64,000 nt of DNA from positions 31,124,001 through 31,188,000 of the forward strand of contig OZ024746.1 of NCBI GenBank assembly GCA_964016885.1, given 5' to 3'. Shown in pieces: positions 2,041 through 64,000 of the stretch (positions within the stretch are counted from its first letter, which is position 1; the number at the start of each line of letters is the position of its first letter). The notes under the pieces were generated by a model. It did no database searches and had not been told where the DNA came from. It saw only the letters and a program-made list of their open reading frames with translations. The stretch comes from Eledone cirrhosa. Lineage: Eukaryota. A program made the translations under genes and the position numbers.

Positions 2041-2158
2041 CTATGAATCTGAAAATTCTTCGTATAATCTGTGGCAGCCTACAGGCAGAACAGAGAATGG
2101 TAATGGAACGTTGTGGTTCTGAACTGAAAGCCCACATCCCTATTTCACTTATTAATAT
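2041..2158 (-). CDS. PLPPR: PLPP/PLPPR-like phospholipid phosphatase-related protein, coding exon 3
   Basis: Acceptor ttgtattttcag, donor G|gtaagt; 118 nt, phase 0 in and phase 1 out; ILISEIGMWAFSSEPQRSITILCSACRLPQIIRRIFRFI-G resembles the PLPPR segment ending RRxxRFxG. Family-level call from recalled sequence; paralogue not assignable. Confidence 0.85.
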
Positions 2159-2235
2159 CTGAAAATACAACATGTGCATATATCATATATCATATATATA
2201 TATATATCATTTGATATATATATATATATCATTTT

Positions 2236-2482
2236 CATCATCATCATTTCATTTTACGTCCGCTTTTCCCTGCTTGCAAGGGTGGGACGGGAACTGATTC
2301 TGGCTTGATTTCTACAGCTGGATGCCCTTCCTAACACCAACCTCATTTACAGTGAGTGCTGGGTGCTTTTTTTTACGTGGCACCTCCACGACCACTTTGC
2401 AGTGGAATGATAGGGACCCCAGTCCCTATCATCTCATTTCTACAGCTGAGTAAACTGGAGCAATGTGAAATAAAATGTCTTG

Positions 2483-2486
<4 letters not shown>
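2236..2486 (-). mobile_element. tRNA-derived SINE with RTE tail, 5'-truncated (same family as 29672-30021)
   Basis: Near-identical reverse complement of ~29760-30021, lacking the tRNA head. Confidence 0.9.
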
Positions 2487-2519
<33 letters not shown>

Positions 2520-2564
2520 TTATTTATTTATTAAAATAACAGATTAAAGTTTAAGCAAAGAATC

Positions 2565-2597
<33 letters not shown>

Positions 2598-2965
2598 TAA
2601 GACTGAGAAGACCACTAATCATGGGAGTACTCAACACATGGGGAGATGTAGAGTGGGTAGAAAGATATGTAAAGTCCTGACTGTGGCACCAAGCAGTTTC
2701 GGTTTGTGTGTTCAGCAATTACTGAACATACAAACCGAAACCACTTGCCGCTGTGGTCGGAATTTTTCATATCTCTCTCTCTCTCTCTCGCTATGTATAT
2801 GTGTGTGTGTGTGTGTGTGTTATGTGTGTGCGTGCGTGTATTGTGAGGCATAAACAAATGTTCTCACTGGATTATTAGCCAATGACATTGGTGAAACTCC
2901 AGTTACATTTAACTGATGCACGCACGCACGCACACGCACACACACACACACACACATACACACAC

Positions 2966-3159
2966 TGGGCCTGTCAACCTCAAAAGCCCAAACAAAGAAT
3001 ACCATGAAAAACAGTGCCCTAAAACAGGGAGAAATGAGGCAAATTGGGGAGATTTAACATAATGAAAGCTAAACCCATTTTCACAATAGACGACATCTCT
3101 CACCCACCCCAAAGTGGGTGGCAGATTTCCCCATCCGACAGGGAGAGTTGACAGGTCTG
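2966..3159. mobile_element. possible small hAT-like MITE inside a (CA)n tract
   Basis: Ends TGGGCCTGTCAAC ... GTTGACAGGTCTG share a 9-bp inverted core; CA repeats on both sides. Confidence 0.4.
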
Positions 3160-3198
3160 CACACACACACAGAGTCACAGCCACACACGCAGTCAGAG

Positions 3199-3246
<48 letters not shown>

Positions 3247-4542
3247 CCACACACATTCACAACCACACACATTCTCAACCACGCGCACAGCCACACACAC
3301 AACCACACACACACACACAACCACGCGCACAGCCACACACACAACCACAACCACATACATTCACAACCATGCACACAGTCACAGCTACGCAACCACATAA
3401 CTATACCCACACACACCTATCCAGCCCATGTCACCATGGAAAGCAACCATGAAATGATAATAGCCATCTCATACTTCAACAATATCACATTCTTTCTCTT
3501 TCTCACAACCTCTATCACTCACTACTACGGTCACACTCTCTTTTTCCATCTCTCTCTCTCTCACACAACCTCTATCATTCACACACTCTCTTTCTCCTTC
3601 TATCACTCTCTCCAACACACATACACCTTCTCTCTCCCAATCTTTCTCAGTTTCTATCTATCTATCAATCCCCCCCACCCCCCGCCACCTTTCTTCTGTC
3701 GTACCCCACCACCACTGTCACCAGTACCGAAAACACCACCACCACCACCACCACAATCGGCCATAACTGCTACCACCCAAACCACCACAATTGCCATCAC
3801 CACCACCACTACCACAACCACCTCAATCACCATCACCACTACCACCACCAGCACTACAGTGTCAGCTATGTTGCCAGGGGTACTACACCTCATCTGACCA
3901 TTACAAGAACACAAGACTGCAGCAAGCTAATCAATACTAACATTCGCACATATACATATATACATACATGTATACATACATACATATATATACATATATA
4001 TGCATACACATAGATATATATATATACAAACATACATATATATACATATACATACAAATATGCATACATACATACAAATATGCATTCATACATACATACA
4101 TGCACATATAGATACATACATGCATGCATACATAAACATATACATGCATGTATACATACATACATATGTGTATACACACACACACACACATATGCAGACC
4201 TGTGTGCTCTATCTTCATGACTAATGCATGGACGTGTGTGTGTATGTTATCATCATCATCATCATCATTTAATGTTCATTTTGCCTGCTAGCAAGTGGAA
4301 TTGGATGGGTCTTCACCGACTGGTCAGTCTTGAAGCAGGGCTACTGACCTTCTGATTTTGGCCAGGAGTCAGCATCTCCCTTACATACAAACCCATGGTG
4401 TACAGAATGTATCTTATCAGGCCACTAACAGTAGGGAGGTTGCCATGTCTTTGACACAATTGAAAAGTCCTCTCTATCCTATGTTTGGCAGGTTTTCTAT
4501 GGCTAGATGCCCTTCCCAACACACACATGATGAATATGGCTA

Positions 4543-4599
<57 letters not shown>

Positions 4600-4710
4600 A
4601 TAAAATATATATATATATATATACTCATCATCACTGTTTAACATCTATTTCCCATGCTTGCATGGGTTGTGTGTGTGTATGCATACATATATATATATAT
4701 ATATATATGA

Positions 4711-5050
4711 TGGCTGCCCCCTCGTTATCGAGTATGGCCATTGCACGATATACCATTATTAATAATTAATTCTATCGTGCAATGCCTGTGCATGAAGATA
4801 ATTTTTTAAATGAGGAAAGACTGTGCACTGAGCCAATCCCACGCTCTGAGCGACAGTAGCTATAACCCGAAAAGAAGAAAATATCATCATCATCGGTAAC
4901 TACTGAGACGCAGGTTTTATATCGGAGTTATCCCAGTTTCCTGAGTTGCCTTCTCCTAGAAGAATGCCCTGACAAAGGCTAGAGGTCCTTCACTCCCAGT
5001 GGTTTAACCGCACGATCGGGTGTCCAGCCCGACTATTTCTATGTCCCCGC
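4711..5050 (-). mobile_element. probable RTE/BovB-derived non-autonomous element
   Basis: GGCTGCCCCCTCGTTATCGAG... and GAGTTGCCTTCTCCTAG... resemble recalled RTE end/5'UTR motifs; internal 11-bp inverted repeat ATTGCACGATA/TATCGTGCAAT. Confidence 0.45.
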
Positions 5051-5147
5051 GCATATACATACACATGCACCCATGTATATACGCATATACATATACGGCC
5101 ATTCAAAAGTGTGTAAATATGTATATACACATGTACATATGTATGTA

Positions 5148-5178
<31 letters not shown>

Positions 5179-5250
5179 GCATACACACTAATGCCCAATG
5201 TATTTTGAGGAATGGCCAGCTGTTATACATTTATTATATATATATATGTA

Positions 5251-5407
5251 AATGTGGTTGGTGTTAGGAAGGGCATCCAGCTGTAGAAAACCCGCCAGAC
5301 AGTCCTATGCGAGCAAGACAACCACTCTTGCCTCAAGTGGGAAAACCTCCGTCCAAACCCATGCAAGCGTGGAACACGGACGCTGATGATGATGATGATG
5401 ATGATGA
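5251..5407 (+). mobile_element. RTE LINE 3' UTR fragment with (GAT)n tail
   Basis: Matches 14850-15007. Confidence 0.88.
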
Positions 5408-5803
5408 TATACATATATATATATATATGTAAAAGGTAAACAGAAATAACAACACAATCGGTACAGTATATGGAAGGTATATATCAGGTTAAATATACAT
5501 ATATATATATATATGATAATTATAAAATGTGGAGAAGGAGCACACAAGTTGGAATATATATATATGTATGTAAACAGGGAGAAAAAAACGATTAGGAAGA
5601 AAAATATTTTTTTTCCTTTATTTTTTTTCTCTTTTTTCTGCGTTAGAAAATGTTTAAAACAAAATATTTTACTTTGTGTGAAGTGTTAAGGTATTAGTTA
5701 ATTTATTTATTAATTAACAATAGCATTGATTTATTTATTTATTAATTTATTTATTTATTTATTTATTTAATAATTGTCAATTGTGTATATATATATATAT
5801 ATA

Positions 5804-6336
5804 TAAAATATTAAACAAATAATGAACAAACAATTCCTTATATTAAACAAAAAAAGTTCACTATTTAACGATCGTTTCTAGGGTATATATGTGTTATAAT
5901 TGGTGTGCATATTTAACAGATCTATGTACAAAATTATACAAAATTATACAAATTATCAAGATTAAATATACATACCTAACTCATACATACGCCGTCTTCA
6001 GAAATAATGAAGACGGCGTATGTATGAGTTAGGTATGTATATTTAATCTTGATAATTTGTATAATTTTGTATAATTTTGTACATAGATCTGTTAAATATG
6101 CACACCAATTATAACACATATATACCCTAGAAACGATCGTTAAATAGTGAACTTTTTTTGTTTAATATAAGGAATTGTTTGTTCATTATTTGTTTAATAT
6201 TTTATCTTGACTCTGTATACCGTTTATCTTTCACCGAAAGTGGATTTTCATTACATCTCTTCTTTCCATGATATCCGGAATACATTGAGTTCTTCATACG
6301 GATTGGACACTACCGTAAACTCTTGGTAGATTTATC

Positions 6337-6340
<4 letters not shown>
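5804..6340. mobile_element. Penelope-like element pseudo-LTR remnant with inverted duplication (~195-bp palindrome arms)
   Basis: 5804-6000 is the reverse complement of 6008-6204 (no mismatch seen by eye) around loop GAAATAA; contains hammerhead motif; right copy extends to ~6340 and ends in (TA)n. Confidence 0.7.
5857..6011 (-). ncRNA. type I hammerhead ribozyme candidate
   Basis: Minus strand: stem I UUCAUUAUUU (6011-6002), CUGAAGA (6001-5995), long stem II region, GAAAC-GAUC-GUU (5878-5867), AAAUAGUGAA (5866-5857); stem I is 10 bp with one G-U. Confidence 0.65.
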
Positions 6341-6375
<35 letters not shown>

Positions 6376-6379
6376 TTAT

Positions 6380-6543
6380 CGTATGATGCCTGTGTGCGAA
6401 GTGTGATGCTGCATGGTAGTGAAACATGGGCTGTGACTGCAGAGGTCATATCTAGACAGGAGAGAAATGAAGCAACCATGCTTCGTTGGATGTGCAATGT
6501 AAGTGTGAGAGAAAGGCTGAGTTTTGACGGGTTAAAGGAGAAG
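6380..6543 (+). mobile_element. RTE LINE ORF fragment
   Basis: [41 protein letters not shown]; the LHGSETW motif is typical of the RTE RT C-terminal region. Confidence 0.88.
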
Positions 6544-6617
6544 CCCCAATTTACTCAACATTTACCACCCCTACTCCCACCCCAACCCATAACCAATATT
6601 AAGAGAGACGGACTCAC

Positions 6618-6777
6618 CACAAATGGTGGGACACAGACACTCAAGGAATAAACAGCTTCATCAGAAACTTCAGCGTGAAATGCAAAATCCACAAAAAGAC
6701 TTTCTTTTGAAGAATGTGAGAGTTCAGCATCTATACAGGAGAAGTTGTTCCGCCGCATTGGAAATACATTTGTCCAT
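6618..6777 (-). CDS. PLPPR: PLPP/PLPPR-like protein, coding exon 2
   Basis: Acceptor tttgctag, donor gtgagt; 160 nt; completes Arg codon AG|A then WTNVFPMRRNNFSCIDAELSHSSKESLFVDFAFHAEVSDEAVYSLSVCVPPFV, with the F.C.D motif of PAP2 extracellular loop 1 leading into TM2. Confidence 0.85.
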
Positions 6778-6934: not shown

Positions 6935-7786
6935 CAGGGTGCAGACGATATGTGTTCGCAATTTTCAACTGCTAATTTTATGCCAATTTTTTTTTTACTT
7001 CTGTTGTCACTCTTGTCTTCATAAAAACAGTGATTATATTTCCATTATTTATTTTCAGAATAATTGATTATGAATAATTTTGAACCTCCAAATTTGTGAA
7101 AGAGACATGGAGTTCTTCTTGGAATCTGCGCCGGGAGGACAAATAAGGAAATTTCAAACTTTCCCAGAACAACAGGTGGCTCGCTGTCTCATCCAAAGAC
7201 ATACCCAGAGTCATGCAGACAAAGTTTCCAGCGACAACATTGGTCTTAGGTGTCGTCAGCAGTCAAGGTGACGTCATGCCACCTCACTTCTTCCCTGAGG
7301 GCCTCAAGCTGAACATCGATGGCTACATCCGCATTCTGAGCGAGATAGTAAAGCCCTGGATCGACCAGGTAGCTGCAGGTAGGCCGTACATGTCATACTA
7401 GCCGAAAGACCCAAGCCTGGCTGTCAGAGAACTTCGTTGACCACACTTCACCTGACATCTGGCCTCCCAGCTCGCCTGACTGCAACCCCCTTGACTTCTT
7501 TGTGTGGGGCGCAGTGGAATGAGACACCAACAGATCTAGCTTCAATACGAAAGACGATCTGAAGGCCAGGATCACAAGTGCCTTTAGTGGCCTAAGTCAG
7601 TGACGAAGGCCTGTAGCTGCCTTGAGGCTGTCATCAAAGCCAATGGCAGGTTTATCGAGTGAGATTGAAAGAACAAGTCATGAAGACAAACTGACCCAAG
7701 TTTGATAAATAAATCTTAAAAAATAAAACTACTGTGTTATTTTTTCCTAGACAGTAATCTTGTGAACAAATATCGTCCGCACCTTG
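6935..7786 (+). mobile_element. internally deleted Tc1/mariner transposon (maT/DD37D-like) with transposase pseudogene
   Basis: ~26-bp TIRs CAGGGTGCAGACGATATGTGTTCGCA / TGTGAACAAATATCGTCCGCACCTTG, TA flanks; peptide remnants TKFPATTLVLGVVSSQGDVMPPHFF...KPWI and WPPSSPDCNPLDFFVW with stops and deletions. Confidence 0.9.
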
Positions 7787-9396: not shown

Positions 9397-9596
9397 CTGA
9401 GAAAGTAGGCTAATGTAGCAATTATACCCAATATAATCAACTCGAGAACAAAGGTGATGACAATGAGAACATTGGGTCGAGATTTCCTTGAAGAATCTGA
9501 TCCAAGATCAGAATCATTGTCTCCTCTTCCGCTTTCCTCCATGTCTTTAGACAACTGATTGTTGCTGCTCTGGGACAGTAGTTTAGGATAGGGCAT
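9397..9596 (-). CDS. PLPPR: PLPP/PLPPR-like protein, first coding exon (exon 9397-9608 including 12 nt 5'UTR)
   Basis: Acceptor ttccag at 9610-9609, ATG at 9596, donor AG|gtaagt; encodes MPYPKLL...RPNVLIVITFVLELIILGIIATLAYFLR (TM1 resembles PLPPR FVELVI...LAYY); phase 2 matches the next exon. Confidence 0.85.
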
Positions 9597-9978: not shown

Positions 9979-10502
9979 AGACCCAGAAAAACCTGGGACG
10001 ACTTGATAAATTCCGACCTCACACACTTACACCTCTCCAAGACAATGTCACTGGACTGAGATCTTTGGTGCTACACAGTCATACAGAAGACCCGCCTTGC
10101 CTAAGTACAAAGCGAAACCTACAGTCAGTAGGCACCTCTAACAAAATACAACCCCGTCCCACTACCCCTACCCCATCCACACCACCCCCTTAAATGTGAA
10201 GTTATGTTGGTACCACAACATCCAGTCTGAAACAAATGAGGTCGTGTAGGTGTCACGACAAAAAAAAAAACACAGTCCACGCTGTAATGTGGCCGTGTAG
10301 GTAACACGGTAAAAACCTCCCAGTCCACACTGTAAACGTGGTTGGTGTTAGGAAGGGCATCCAGCCGTAGAAAACCCACCAGACAGTCCTATACGAGCAG
10401 GACAACCAATCTTGCCTCAAGTGAGAAAACTCCCGTCCAAACCCATGCAAGCGTGGAAGATGGACGTTAAACGATGATGATGATGATGATGATGATGATG
10501 AT
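9979..10502 (+). mobile_element. RTE LINE 3' end, 5'-truncated
   Basis: RPRKTWDDLINSDLTHLHLSKTMSLD..., 3'UTR, (GAT)n tail. Confidence 0.92.
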
Positions 10503-10699
10503 AGTTAGGGTGGGGCATCTTATTTCACAGCTGGAATACAGATATAGATAGATATATATTGACAAACAGACAGAGAGATAGATACTAAAAGTAAATGTGG
10601 TGATGAGAGACTGAAAGTTACAGTGTTTGCCAATTGAATGAAGACAACATTAGTTTTGAGAGTAGTTATCTATTTGGCCTAGCATGTAACACCTCTCTA

Positions 10700-15007: not shown

Positions 15008-15392
15008 TATATATATTTATATACACACATTTTATATATATATATACATACACATATATATATATATATACATACACACATATATATATATATACATACA
15101 CACATATATATATATACACATATATATAAACACACACACATATATATATCATCATCATCATCATCCATCCGCTTTTCCCTGCTTATATATACACACACAC
15201 ACATATATATATATATGTATGGTGATGTTCTAAATATAGTTGGACTGTTGACACCATCTACCAGGAATTTCCTCTCAAAATCCGTTTACACACGCACGCA
15301 CACACACACACGCACGCACACACACACACACACACATACGTACATACATACATATGATAGCTTAATGATGCAACCATCATATACAGTATATG

Positions 15393-19796: not shown

Positions 19797-20604
19797 TATC
19801 ATCATCATCTTCGTTTAACGTCCATCTTCCACGCTAGCATGAGTTAGACGGGAGTTGTCCCACTTGAGGCAAGGTTGGTCGGGTGACCGTGTCTCGCTCA
19901 TATAGGACTATCTGTCAGGTTTTCTACGGCTGGATGCCCTTCCTAACACCAACCACATTTACAGTGTGGAACTGGGAACTTTTTACCGTGTTACCTACAC
20001 GGCCACATTACAGCGTGGACTGTGTGTGTTTTTTGTCGTGACACCTACACGATCTCGATCTCATTATCTCGTGCTGTTGGTGGGAGTGGGAGGATATGGT
20101 AGGGGTAGTGGATTAGGGTGTATATTTGGTTAAGAGGTGCCTACTAACTGTAGGTTTCGCTTTGTACATAGGCAAGGTGGGTCTTCTGTATTACTGCGTA
20201 GCGCCAAAGATCTCGGTCCAGAGACATTGTCTTAGAGAGATGTAAGTGTGTAAGGTCAGAATTTATCAGATCGTCCCACATTTTTCCGGGTCTACCTACT
20301 CCGTAACTTCCATCAATTTTGATCGCCCTGCACTTTTTTATGCAGCTGTCGTCTTTCATGCGCATCACGTGACCATACCAACGTAGTCTTCTCTCAAGTA
20401 AACACCATCTGATCCCTCTTATTCCTAATTTCTCACTTAGCTCATCTATGCTTTGTCGCTCACGTATATTACTATTACACATCCAACGGAGCATTCATGC
20501 TTCATTCCTTTCCAGTCTGCGCAGGTCCTCTGCACGTAATGCCCATGTCTCACTGCCATGTAGCATTGCTGTCCATATGCAGGCATCATACAGCCTGCCT
20601 TTCA
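19797..20604 (-). mobile_element. RTE LINE 3' end (longest copy in the window), pseudogenised
   Basis: [41 protein letters not shown]...RRLRWYGHVMRM...GRPGKMWDD; in-frame stop; 3'UTR and (GAT)n tail. Confidence 0.93.
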
Positions 20605-63272: not shown

Positions 63273-63489
63273 TTTCGTAAATAGAAACTCCACTACGCTT
63301 AATCGTCACCATTTCACTGGGGATATACTACTGATGTGGAGTGCTTTTGGACTGCTGAAATTATCTTTGTGGCATTACAATGCAACCTTCATGAATAAAC
63401 ACCATAATTATCCACACACACACACACACACACACACCCACCACCACCACCACCACCACCACCACCACCACCACCACCACCACCATCAC

Positions 63490-64000
63490 CATCATCATCA
63501 TCATCATCATCATTTAACATCCATCTTCCACGCTTGCATGGGTTTGGACGGGAATTTTCCCATTTGAGGCAAGATTGGTTGTCTTGCTCGTATAGGACTG
63601 TCTGGCAGGTTTTCTACGGCTGAATGCCCTTCCTAACACCAACCACGTTTACAGTGTGGACTGGGAGGTTTTTACCGTGTTACCTACATGACCACATTAC
63701 AGCGTGGACTGTGTTTTTTTTGTCGTGGCACCTACACAACCTCATTTATTTCGGACTGGATGTTGTGGTACCAACATAACTTTACATCGAAAGGGGTGGT
63801 GTGGATGAAGTGGGGGTAGTGGGACGGGGGTGTATTTTTGTTAAGAGGTGCCTACTGACTGTAGGTTTCGCTTTGTACTTAGGCAAGGCGGGCCTTCTGT
63901 ATTACTGTGTAGCACGAATGACGGTCCAGTGACATTGTCTTGGAGAGGTGTAAGTGTGTGAGGTCGGAATTTATCAAGTCATCCCAGGTTTTTCTGGGTC
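63490..64000 (-). mobile_element. RTE LINE 3' end (runs off the window)
   Basis: Reverse complement of 9979-10502; (CAT)n tail merges into (CAC)n and (CA)n. Confidence 0.93.

What the first reader, a model, noticed from the sequence alone, without database searches (positions are those of the whole stretch)
5804..6204. Intronic hammerhead ribozyme on the gene's sense strand, paired with its own ~195-bp antisense arm
Seen: a palindrome with ~195-bp arms and a 7-nt loop in the intron between coding exons 2 and 3. On the minus (pre-mRNA) strand it holds all type I hammerhead parts: 10-bp stem I (UUCAUUAUUU/AAAUAGUGAA), CUGAAGA, an unusually long (~116 nt) stem II region, and GAAAC-GAUC-GUU with a palindromic stem III loop. 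Knowledge: Penelope-like pLTRs carry minimal hammerheads and often insert as inverted pLTRs; coleoids edit dsRNA heavily with ADAR. Inference: the antisense arm is transcribed first and should sequester the ribozyme, protecting the pre-mRNA; editing or unwinding could release cleavage, giving a possible fold-back versus self-cleavage switch.
Basis: partly seen in the sequence, partly recalled or inferred. Interest (0 to 1): 0.75.

Follow-up and report, generated by a model that had tools for sequence, protein, structure and literature searches.

The report
Penelope stub with silenced long-armed hammerhead
This mirror-image repeat in a gene's intron is a young leftover of a jumping gene whose ribozyme motif occurs about 15,000 times in the genome; the motif has an unusually long, conserved arm, and here it is predicted to be locked off by the opposite half of the repeat rather than to act as a switch for the host gene.

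Summary
The palindrome (198-bp arms, 7-nt loop), all type I hammerhead parts and the intronic position are real. It is a 540-bp head-to-head stub of a young Penelope-like element with Hydra-clade motifs: the same junction recurs at 56 sites and the ribozyme half at 15,168. The + arm runs 137 nt past the reported end, and the loop sits on the short arm in 14 and on the long arm in 15 of 30 junction loci, which favours two cDNAs joined head to head over self fold-back. The 99-116-nt stem II is a rod kept by compensatory changes across five subfamilies, one with a U3-A8 core. Pairing with the antisense arm costs the ribozyme fold about 177 kcal/mol; simulated editing never frees it, and family-level contigs of a probable RNA run show A-to-G at core A15.1, so editing likely disables it. 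A host switch is not supported. New lead: splice-site-like signals at a fixed place inside stem II (candidate intron), without any spliced copy seen. The scan noted such stubs and long-armed Hydra hammerheads before, in this and other genomes.

The parts
5786..5803 (.). left (TA)n target microsatellite
   Evidence: sequence; family copies end in (TA)n
5803..6011 (-). short arm: pLTR positions 1-209, carries the hammerhead motif on the pre-mRNA strand
   Evidence: 2 differences from each of 29 best-scoring other copies
6002..6011 (-). stem I 5' strand; inferred RNA start at 6008 (7 nt before C3) inside an initiator-like TCATT
   Evidence: 15 of 23 family-A copies begin exactly there; start site inferred
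5995..6001 (-). catalytic box CUGAAGA
   Evidence: sequence; C3-G8 becomes U3-A8 in subfamily C (612 matches)
5879..5994 (-). 116-nt extended stem II: 2 bp, conserved C.C/C.U mismatch, long helix, invariant apical module (5958-5947 with 5928-5919)
5922..5975 (-). candidate 54-nt intron in stem II (donor-like GTATGT at 5975, acceptor-like ACATAG ending 5922; alternative acceptor ending 5878, 98 nt)
   Evidence: donor-like hexamer at spacer position 18-20 in 11 of 11 representatives; no spliced form seen
5867..5878 (-). GAAA box, 2-bp stem III with palindromic GAUC loop, GUU triplet; predicted cut after 5867
   Evidence: sequence; 8-bp intermolecular duplex -10.0 versus monomer hairpin +2.4 kcal/mol
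5857..5866 (-). stem I 3' strand
   Evidence: 4 of 10 stem I pairs change on both sides
5817..5827 (-). downstream repeat of the stem I 5' strand, predicted to compete for the 3' strand
   Evidence: penalty of the ribozyme fold rises from 7.0 to 13.5 kcal/mol when the pLTR end is included
6001..6007 (.). 7-nt loop at the head-to-head junction, closed by a natural short inverted repeat of the family
   Evidence: same 25-nt junction at 56 sites, control 0
6008..6205 (+). long arm, pLTR positions 12-209; antisense on the pre-mRNA
6206..6342 (+). 137-nt tail: element sequence beyond the pLTR, ending at a second fixed end (about position 346)
   Evidence: identical to the element unit; same end in 23 of 30 junction loci
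6340..6369 (.). right (TA)n target microsatellite
   Evidence: sequence
6618..6777 (-). host coding exon upstream of the insertion (likely PAP2/PLPP-related gene)
2041..2158 (-). host coding exon downstream of the insertion
9397..9596 (-). first host coding exon seen (starts with Met)

Best explanation
The palindrome is a 540-bp head-to-head stub of a young, high-copy Penelope-like retrotransposon that sits in a TA microsatellite of a host intron, and its hammerhead motif belongs to the element and is predicted to stay locked in the 198-bp hairpin, so it is likely inert for the host. Shown: family, copy numbers, two fixed outer ends (pLTR positions 209 and 346), recurrent junction, covarying ribozyme helices. 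Inferred: the element's protein nicked both target strands and copied the 5' end of one RNA twice, from the two start points; both cDNAs ran to the RNA start 7 nt before the catalytic core and were joined through a short natural inverted repeat. Inferred: in the host pre-mRNA the antisense arm is made first, the hairpin zips from its tip as the core emerges, and A-to-I editing of the duplex damages the core rather than freeing it. In the full element the long-armed ribozyme is likely functional, probably as a dimer or with the element's protein.
For: Tandem 6.06-kb units with an 813-aa RT/GIY-YIG ORF downstream of the same pLTR; Hydra-type motifs RWR, DKT, CxCX5C, CxxC-E, CxH (against PMC8557442 section 11). 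15,168 matches to the 3' half of the motif, control 0; 56 identical junctions, control 0. Of 30 junction loci, 29 have one short and one long arm; the loop-bearing arm is short in 14 and long in 15; a short arm cannot template a longer one by self fold-back. Both arms share two changes; one is found only in these two arms, the other (A>G) in one further copy. Two RT start points on either strand match the tail in vitro for an anole element (PMC11167929). Structure: 91.9% of 530 cells paired, 10 of 30 pairs change on both sides, slid controls 28-55%; base of stem II pairs 7-9 of 9 within a subfamily but 2-4 of 9 between A/B/E and C or D. Energy penalty 176.9 kcal/mol in the whole insertion, 20.5 with only the first bases of the antisense arm; 71 at full A>G on both arms, 44.5 with all antisense A unpairable. 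Run X5 shows 16 A>G and 23 T>C places of 55 versus 8 and 2 of 27 in X1, with A>G at A15.1 in 365 of 1,294 depth versus 0 of 610,204.
Against: No cleavage assay; energies are nearest-neighbour estimates with G or N as stand-ins for inosine and ignore helicases. X5 is not on record as RNA, comes from another sample than X1, and reports the family, not this locus. No reads were laid on this locus, so local assembly accuracy, expression and presence in other individuals are untested. The 30 junction loci were the first 30 of 56, chosen by the junction itself. Shared private changes also fit gene conversion between arms or an unassembled source copy. Even the isolated arm is predicted to prefer a fold that pairs the two catalytic boxes (4-7 kcal/mol), so activity of the family ribozyme is not shown.
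Confidence: 0.82

Rival explanations
1. Host-regulatory switch: editing or unwinding releases the ribozyme, which cuts the host pre-mRNA.
For: Motif is on the pre-mRNA strand and intact; family repeats carry A>G/T>C changes in a probable RNA run; intronic hammerheads with suggested roles in mRNA biogenesis exist in amniotes (PMC6765202 passages).
Against: Young recurrent by-product; release is energetically out of reach in simulation; editing hits core adenosines; no second same-strand copy here for a dimer; one of the two private changes breaks a stem II pair.
Confidence: 0.05
2. The stub arose by self fold-back of one cDNA at the natural mini-hairpin (self-priming), not from two cDNAs.
For: Junction sits on a natural short inverted repeat; arms identical including private changes; self-priming was proposed for such palindromes (PMC3846280 passages); 15 of 30 loci have the orientation that fold-back predicts.
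Against: In this locus and 13 more the loop-bearing arm is the shorter one, and its partner holds 137 nt that it cannot template; many head-to-head junctions keep the core on both arms with varied filler.
Confidence: 0.15
3. Stem II holds a spliceosomal intron whose donor is masked by the ribozyme helix, so RNA folding chooses between a spliced mRNA and an unspliced template (concerns the element, compatible with the best explanation).
For: GTATGT (A, B, D, E) or GTAAGT (C) at spacer position 18-20 in 11 of 11 representatives, T-rich tract and ACATAG 42-54 nt on, second YAG 82-98 nt on; donor paired with a downstream strand in 88.9% of cells; Penelope has a 75-bp intron 46 bp after its start (PMC2377424 passages), here 33 nt; removing the short intron keeps the base of stem II.
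Against: No splice joint in four laid runs (contigs cannot show absence and ORF depth in X5 is under 20); 0 precisely spliced genomic copies (0 matches; 0 of 5; 0 of 4; 0 of 7), though these elements keep introns; the hexamer arises somewhere in 6-28% of shuffled spacers and on the reverse strand in 3 of 5; pairing alone explains the conservation (helix has no two-sided change); donor to branch-like A is only 19 nt; no unrelated family with a GTRAGT donor (13 hits, all point variants of known subfamilies).
Confidence: 0.25
4. Assembly or read fold-back artefact.
For: Arms are 100% identical and share a change found nowhere else; no reads were checked at this locus.
Against: Unequal arms ending at two family-wide fixed points, each in (TA)n, different unique flanks, an intact host reading frame across the intron; sister palindromes show 0-5 arm mismatches (20 of 21 compared).
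Confidence: 0.03

Closest known systems
Hydra-clade EN+ Penelope-like elements, incl. Hydra-1_Obim (Craig et al. 2021, PMC8557442; passages, section 11, supplement part 2 of 59 and search hits seen)
   Same: RWR/RWK, DKT, CxCX5C, CxxC and CxH motifs, C-terminal GIY-YIG, (TA)n target, type I hammerhead in the pLTR
   Different: Listed Hydra hammerheads have loop II of 3-10 nt; here 99-116 nt lie between the boxes. Unit is 6.06 kb with a 3.1-kb 3' region (published: generally under 3 kb). Not the same family as Hydra-1_Obim by its listed ribozyme sequence.
Typical Penelope insertion with inverted pLTR, junction palindrome and one-sided tail (PMC3846280 passages; PMC11167929 parts 1-2 of 4)
   Same: Head-to-head inverted pLTR, palindrome at the junction, tail on one side, two RT start points
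   Different: No ORF between the arms; tail 137 nt instead of 30-40; loop faces either way across copies
PLE hammerheads with short palindromic stem III (Cervera and de la Pena 2014, PMC4209133 passages)
   Same: Type I, short stem III with palindromic loop, extra nucleotide after A9, expected dimer activity; in D. virilis an intron end meets the ribozyme
   Different: Long rod-like stem II with invariant apical module; first stem II position is C.A or U-A; candidate intron lies inside stem II, not at helix I
Intronic amniote hammerheads and the discontinuous Clec2 hammerhead (PMC6765202 passages; details recalled)
   Same: Intronic location on the sense strand; ribozyme with a long insertion
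   Different: Those are conserved low-copy host features; this is one of thousands of young transposon copies and is paired with its own antisense arm

Membership tests
Type I hammerhead ribozyme | CUGANGA, GAAA and NUH boxes in type I order | tested here: met
Type I hammerhead ribozyme | Stems I and II formed and kept by covariation | tested here: met
   subfamilies are related, so changes are few independent events
Type I hammerhead ribozyme | 3-8 base pair in the core | tested here: met
   C-G in 15, U-A in 3 of 18 rows
Type I hammerhead ribozyme | G10.1-C11.1 pair next to the core | tested here: inconclusive
   C.A (U-A in some E copies), then A-U/G-C/G-U, then invariant G-C
Type I hammerhead ribozyme | Match to an Rfam hammerhead model | tested here: not met
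   none among 46 matches at E up to 10; the long stem II is outside the models
Type I hammerhead ribozyme | Self-cleavage | not testable with these tools
   needs an in vitro assay
EN+ Penelope-like element | Single ORF with RT and C-terminal GIY-YIG, tandem pLTRs, inverted 5' copies, tail | tested here: met
   Pfam gave no RT or GIY-YIG hit for this ORF, a 39% identical relative hits GIY-YIG weakly
Hydra clade | RWK-like, DKT, CxCX5C, CxxC and CxH motifs | tested here: met
   residues 37, 115, 673, 771, 799
Hydra clade | No CCHH finger inside the GIY-YIG core | tested here: inconclusive
   two cysteines 9 residues apart between the motifs, not CxxC
Hydra clade | (TA)n target | tested here: met
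Hydra clade | Placement in an RT tree with reference families | not tested
   no tree built
Host-conserved intronic ribozyme | Low copy number and age | tested here: not met
Host-conserved intronic ribozyme | Kept at the orthologous site in relatives | not tested
   no related genome held; no reads laid on this locus
Spliceosomal intron | Donor, branch and acceptor signals at conserved places | tested here: inconclusive
Spliceosomal intron | Spliced junction in RNA | tested here: inconclusive
   none in four contig sets, none on record as RNA

The most novel reading that the evidence does not exclude
This Hydra lineage carries a hammerhead whose stem II contains a spliceosomal intron and pairs with that intron's donor site, so ribozyme folding blocks splicing and yields the unspliced template: a structural answer to how Penelope-like elements keep their introns, with ADAR editing of head-to-head stubs disabling thousands of intronic ribozyme copies.
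Probability: 0.2. Interest if true: 0.72.

Novelty: new variant of a known kind. Interest (0 to 1): 0.36.

Why it matters
The locus itself is ordinary for this genome. The family matters more: a covarying 100-nt stem II is missed by Rfam and by published descriptors, so such ribozymes are undercounted; the two fixed ends and two-way loop give a genomic test of how Penelope-like elements make inverted ends; and the candidate intron gives a one-experiment test of the open question of intron retention. Editing of core adenosines suggests how a host may tolerate many intronic ribozyme copies.

Tried and rejected
Rfam: no hammerhead, only hairpin miRNA models below threshold. First idea of a long intron that restores GAAAC on splicing: 0 genomic copies, and C and D lack the needed G. 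Five apparent short-intron junctions: four were other inverted junctions, one a fragment in TA repeats. Sequencing runs: no RNA holder listed. No read evidence was obtained for this locus itself. Private-variant survey of 21 family-A palindromes (the window copy fell outside the filter) was too sparse to show an editing signature: 1 A>G of 5 shared changes. An extra G before the inferred start occurs in 7 of 16 truncated copies: suggestive of a cap only. Scripts had orientation/offset errors and were redone; branch distances printed are wrong, corrected for the window. Literature searches for an intron inside a hammerhead stem II, for octopus hammerheads, for twin priming in Penelope, and for ADAR control of natural hammerheads listed nothing describing these; searches on inosine at 15.1 and on octopus minimal introns gave 0 papers. 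That I15.1 changes the cleavage rule from NUH to NCH is recalled. Supplements of PMC4209133, most of that of PMC8557442, subscription papers and Repbase were not seen and may hold long-armed examples.

Full report
Observation. The inverted repeat is exact: 5803-6000 and 6008-6205, 198 nt, 7 nt apart. The minus strand holds the type I hammerhead parts as described, with the predicted cut after 5867. Three minus-strand exons with AG/GT ends join in one frame, and a following exon outside the window resembles PAP2 (E 0.0028), so the repeat is in the intron 2159-6617 of a likely PLPP-related gene and the antisense arm is transcribed first. Rfam lists no hammerhead.

Identity. A search with the ribozyme arm gave 714 candidates, 40 scored, 41 matches; the 29 other loci fetched differ from the window at the same two positions only. 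Many lie in 6.06-kb tandem units with an 813-aa ORF downstream. The ORF has YRDD, a C-terminal GIY-YIG-like region and the motifs that define the Hydra clade (PMC8557442 section 11); 118 relatives were found, best 39% over the full length. The window's + arm continues as element sequence to about 6342, so the insertion is 540 bp between two TA tracts. The 3' half of the motif has 15,168 exact-pattern matches; by my count 22 of the first 100 listed lie in 11 head-to-head pairs within 500 bp. The exact junction has 56 matches.

How the stub formed (inferred). In the first 30 of the 56 junction loci, 29 have one arm ending at the short end and one carrying the tail; 23 tails end at position 346; the loop-bearing arm is short in 14 and long in 15 (three loci belong to subfamily D, one has an insertion). 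Self fold-back, proposed in PMC3846280, explains only the second class; the window is of the first. Two cDNAs started from both nicked strands at two RNA positions fit both, and match the two RT start points seen in vitro on either strand for an anole element (PMC11167929). Copies pile up 7 nt before C3 (15 of 23 family-A copies not chosen by the junction), the likely RNA start. Both arms share an A>G change (one other copy in the genome) and a T>C change (no other copy), as expected from one template copied twice, though conversion between arms also fits. Earlier scan notes reached the same two-primer reading in other genomes; I saw them before running the orientation count.

The ribozyme. 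Five subfamilies (A-E) keep 99-116 nt between the boxes. With the hammerhead structure named, 91.9% of 530 cells pair and 10 of 30 pairs change on both sides, against 28-55% for slid partners (18 related rows, subfamily C misaligned in stem II). Anchored on the boxes, the base of stem II pairs 7-9 of 9 within a subfamily, 2-4 of 9 between A/B/E and C or D, and 6-7 of 9 between C and D. Subfamily C (612 matches) has U3-A8 and a recoded stem I. A C.C or C.U mismatch and an apical module are kept. All representatives fold as a long rod (z -3.5 for the window arm). Published Hydra hammerheads have loop II of 3-10 nt (File S2). So the motif is under selection in the element lineage. Cleavage is not shown: stem III is 2 bp (dimer duplex -10.0, monomer +2.4 kcal/mol), a fold pairing the two boxes is preferred by 4-7 kcal/mol, and the anole ribozyme needed protein.

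The switch. On the pre-mRNA the ribozyme fold costs 176.9 kcal/mol; with only the first bases of the antisense arm 20.5. Simulated editing leaves 71 (all A to G, both arms) or 44.5 (all antisense A unpairable), while the chance that five core A survive falls to 3% at 50% editing. Contigs of run X5, laid on a full-length copy, show 16 A>G and 23 T>C places of 55, against 8 and 2 of 27 in X1; A>G at A15.1 has depth 365 of 1,294 and at 11.1 307 of 1,152, both 0 in X1 (40 of 60 rows shown). X5 is inferred to be RNA from its size (88 versus 1,381 million letters) and this signature; it is another sample and reports the family. The editing prediction is thus met at family level, but it falls on the core, which points to inactivation. 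The locus is young and one of many, with no sign of host selection; orthologous conservation and local reads were not examined.

Candidate intron. A donor-like hexamer lies at spacer position 18-20 in 11 of 11 representatives (GTATGT; GTAAGT in C), followed by a T-rich tract and ACATAG 42-54 nt on, or YAG at the GAAA box 82-98 nt on; the donor pairs with a downstream strand. Penelope has a 75-bp intron 46 bp after its start (PMC2377424), and in D. virilis an intron end alters the ribozyme (PMC4209133). Against: no splice joint, no precisely spliced copy, chance rate 6-28% for the hexamer somewhere in a shuffled spacer, a 19-nt donor-branch distance, no independent family. It stays a lead at about one in four.

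Papers seen: PMC8557442 passages, section 11, supplement part 2 of 59 and search hits; PMC4209133, PMC3846280, PMC6765202, PMC3923133, PMC2377424 passages; PMC11167929 parts 1-2 of 4; bioRxiv 10.64898/2026.07.22.740005 part 1 of 5; others as listings only.

Verdict. Observation confirmed; interpretation partly supported. A known kind of Penelope stub carrying a long-armed variant of a known ribozyme, likely silenced here. Interest 0.36.

Noticed in passing
L123-L146 (subfamily C, 612 matches): Subfamily with U3-A8 core, GUA triplet, recoded stems I and II and a GTAAGT donor-like site; its ORF piece is 60-75% identical to family A's.
   Followed up: partly
L032:6284-9406: 3.1-kb 3' region of the element unit made largely of microsatellite-like sequence, near-identical between tandem copies.
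   Followed up: no
L032:3335-3346: AATAAA lies about 10 nt upstream of the inferred RNA start in subfamilies A, B, E and C; may end upstream ORF transcripts at the ribozyme.
   Followed up: no
L032:3288-3347: T>C clusters seen only in X5 upstream of the pLTR, consistent with edited antisense transcripts.
   Followed up: no
L099, L109, L112-L114, L117, L118: Copies of subfamilies B and C share the same short foreign sequence directly before the inferred RNA start, suggesting a common upstream unit or template jump.
   Followed up: no
window 7090-7660: Fragment of a Tc1/mariner-like transposase in the preceding intron (identity from recalled motifs).
   Followed up: no
window 6376-6545 and 20144-20494: RTE-like LINE 3' fragments (identity from recalled motifs), one directly beside the insertion.
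   Followed up: no
window 23000-60000: Very large C-rich tandem arrays with strong GC skew and long repetitive open frames.
   Followed up: no
window 10258-10513 and 63471-63726: 256-nt dispersed repeat in inverted orientation, 93% alike.
   Followed up: no
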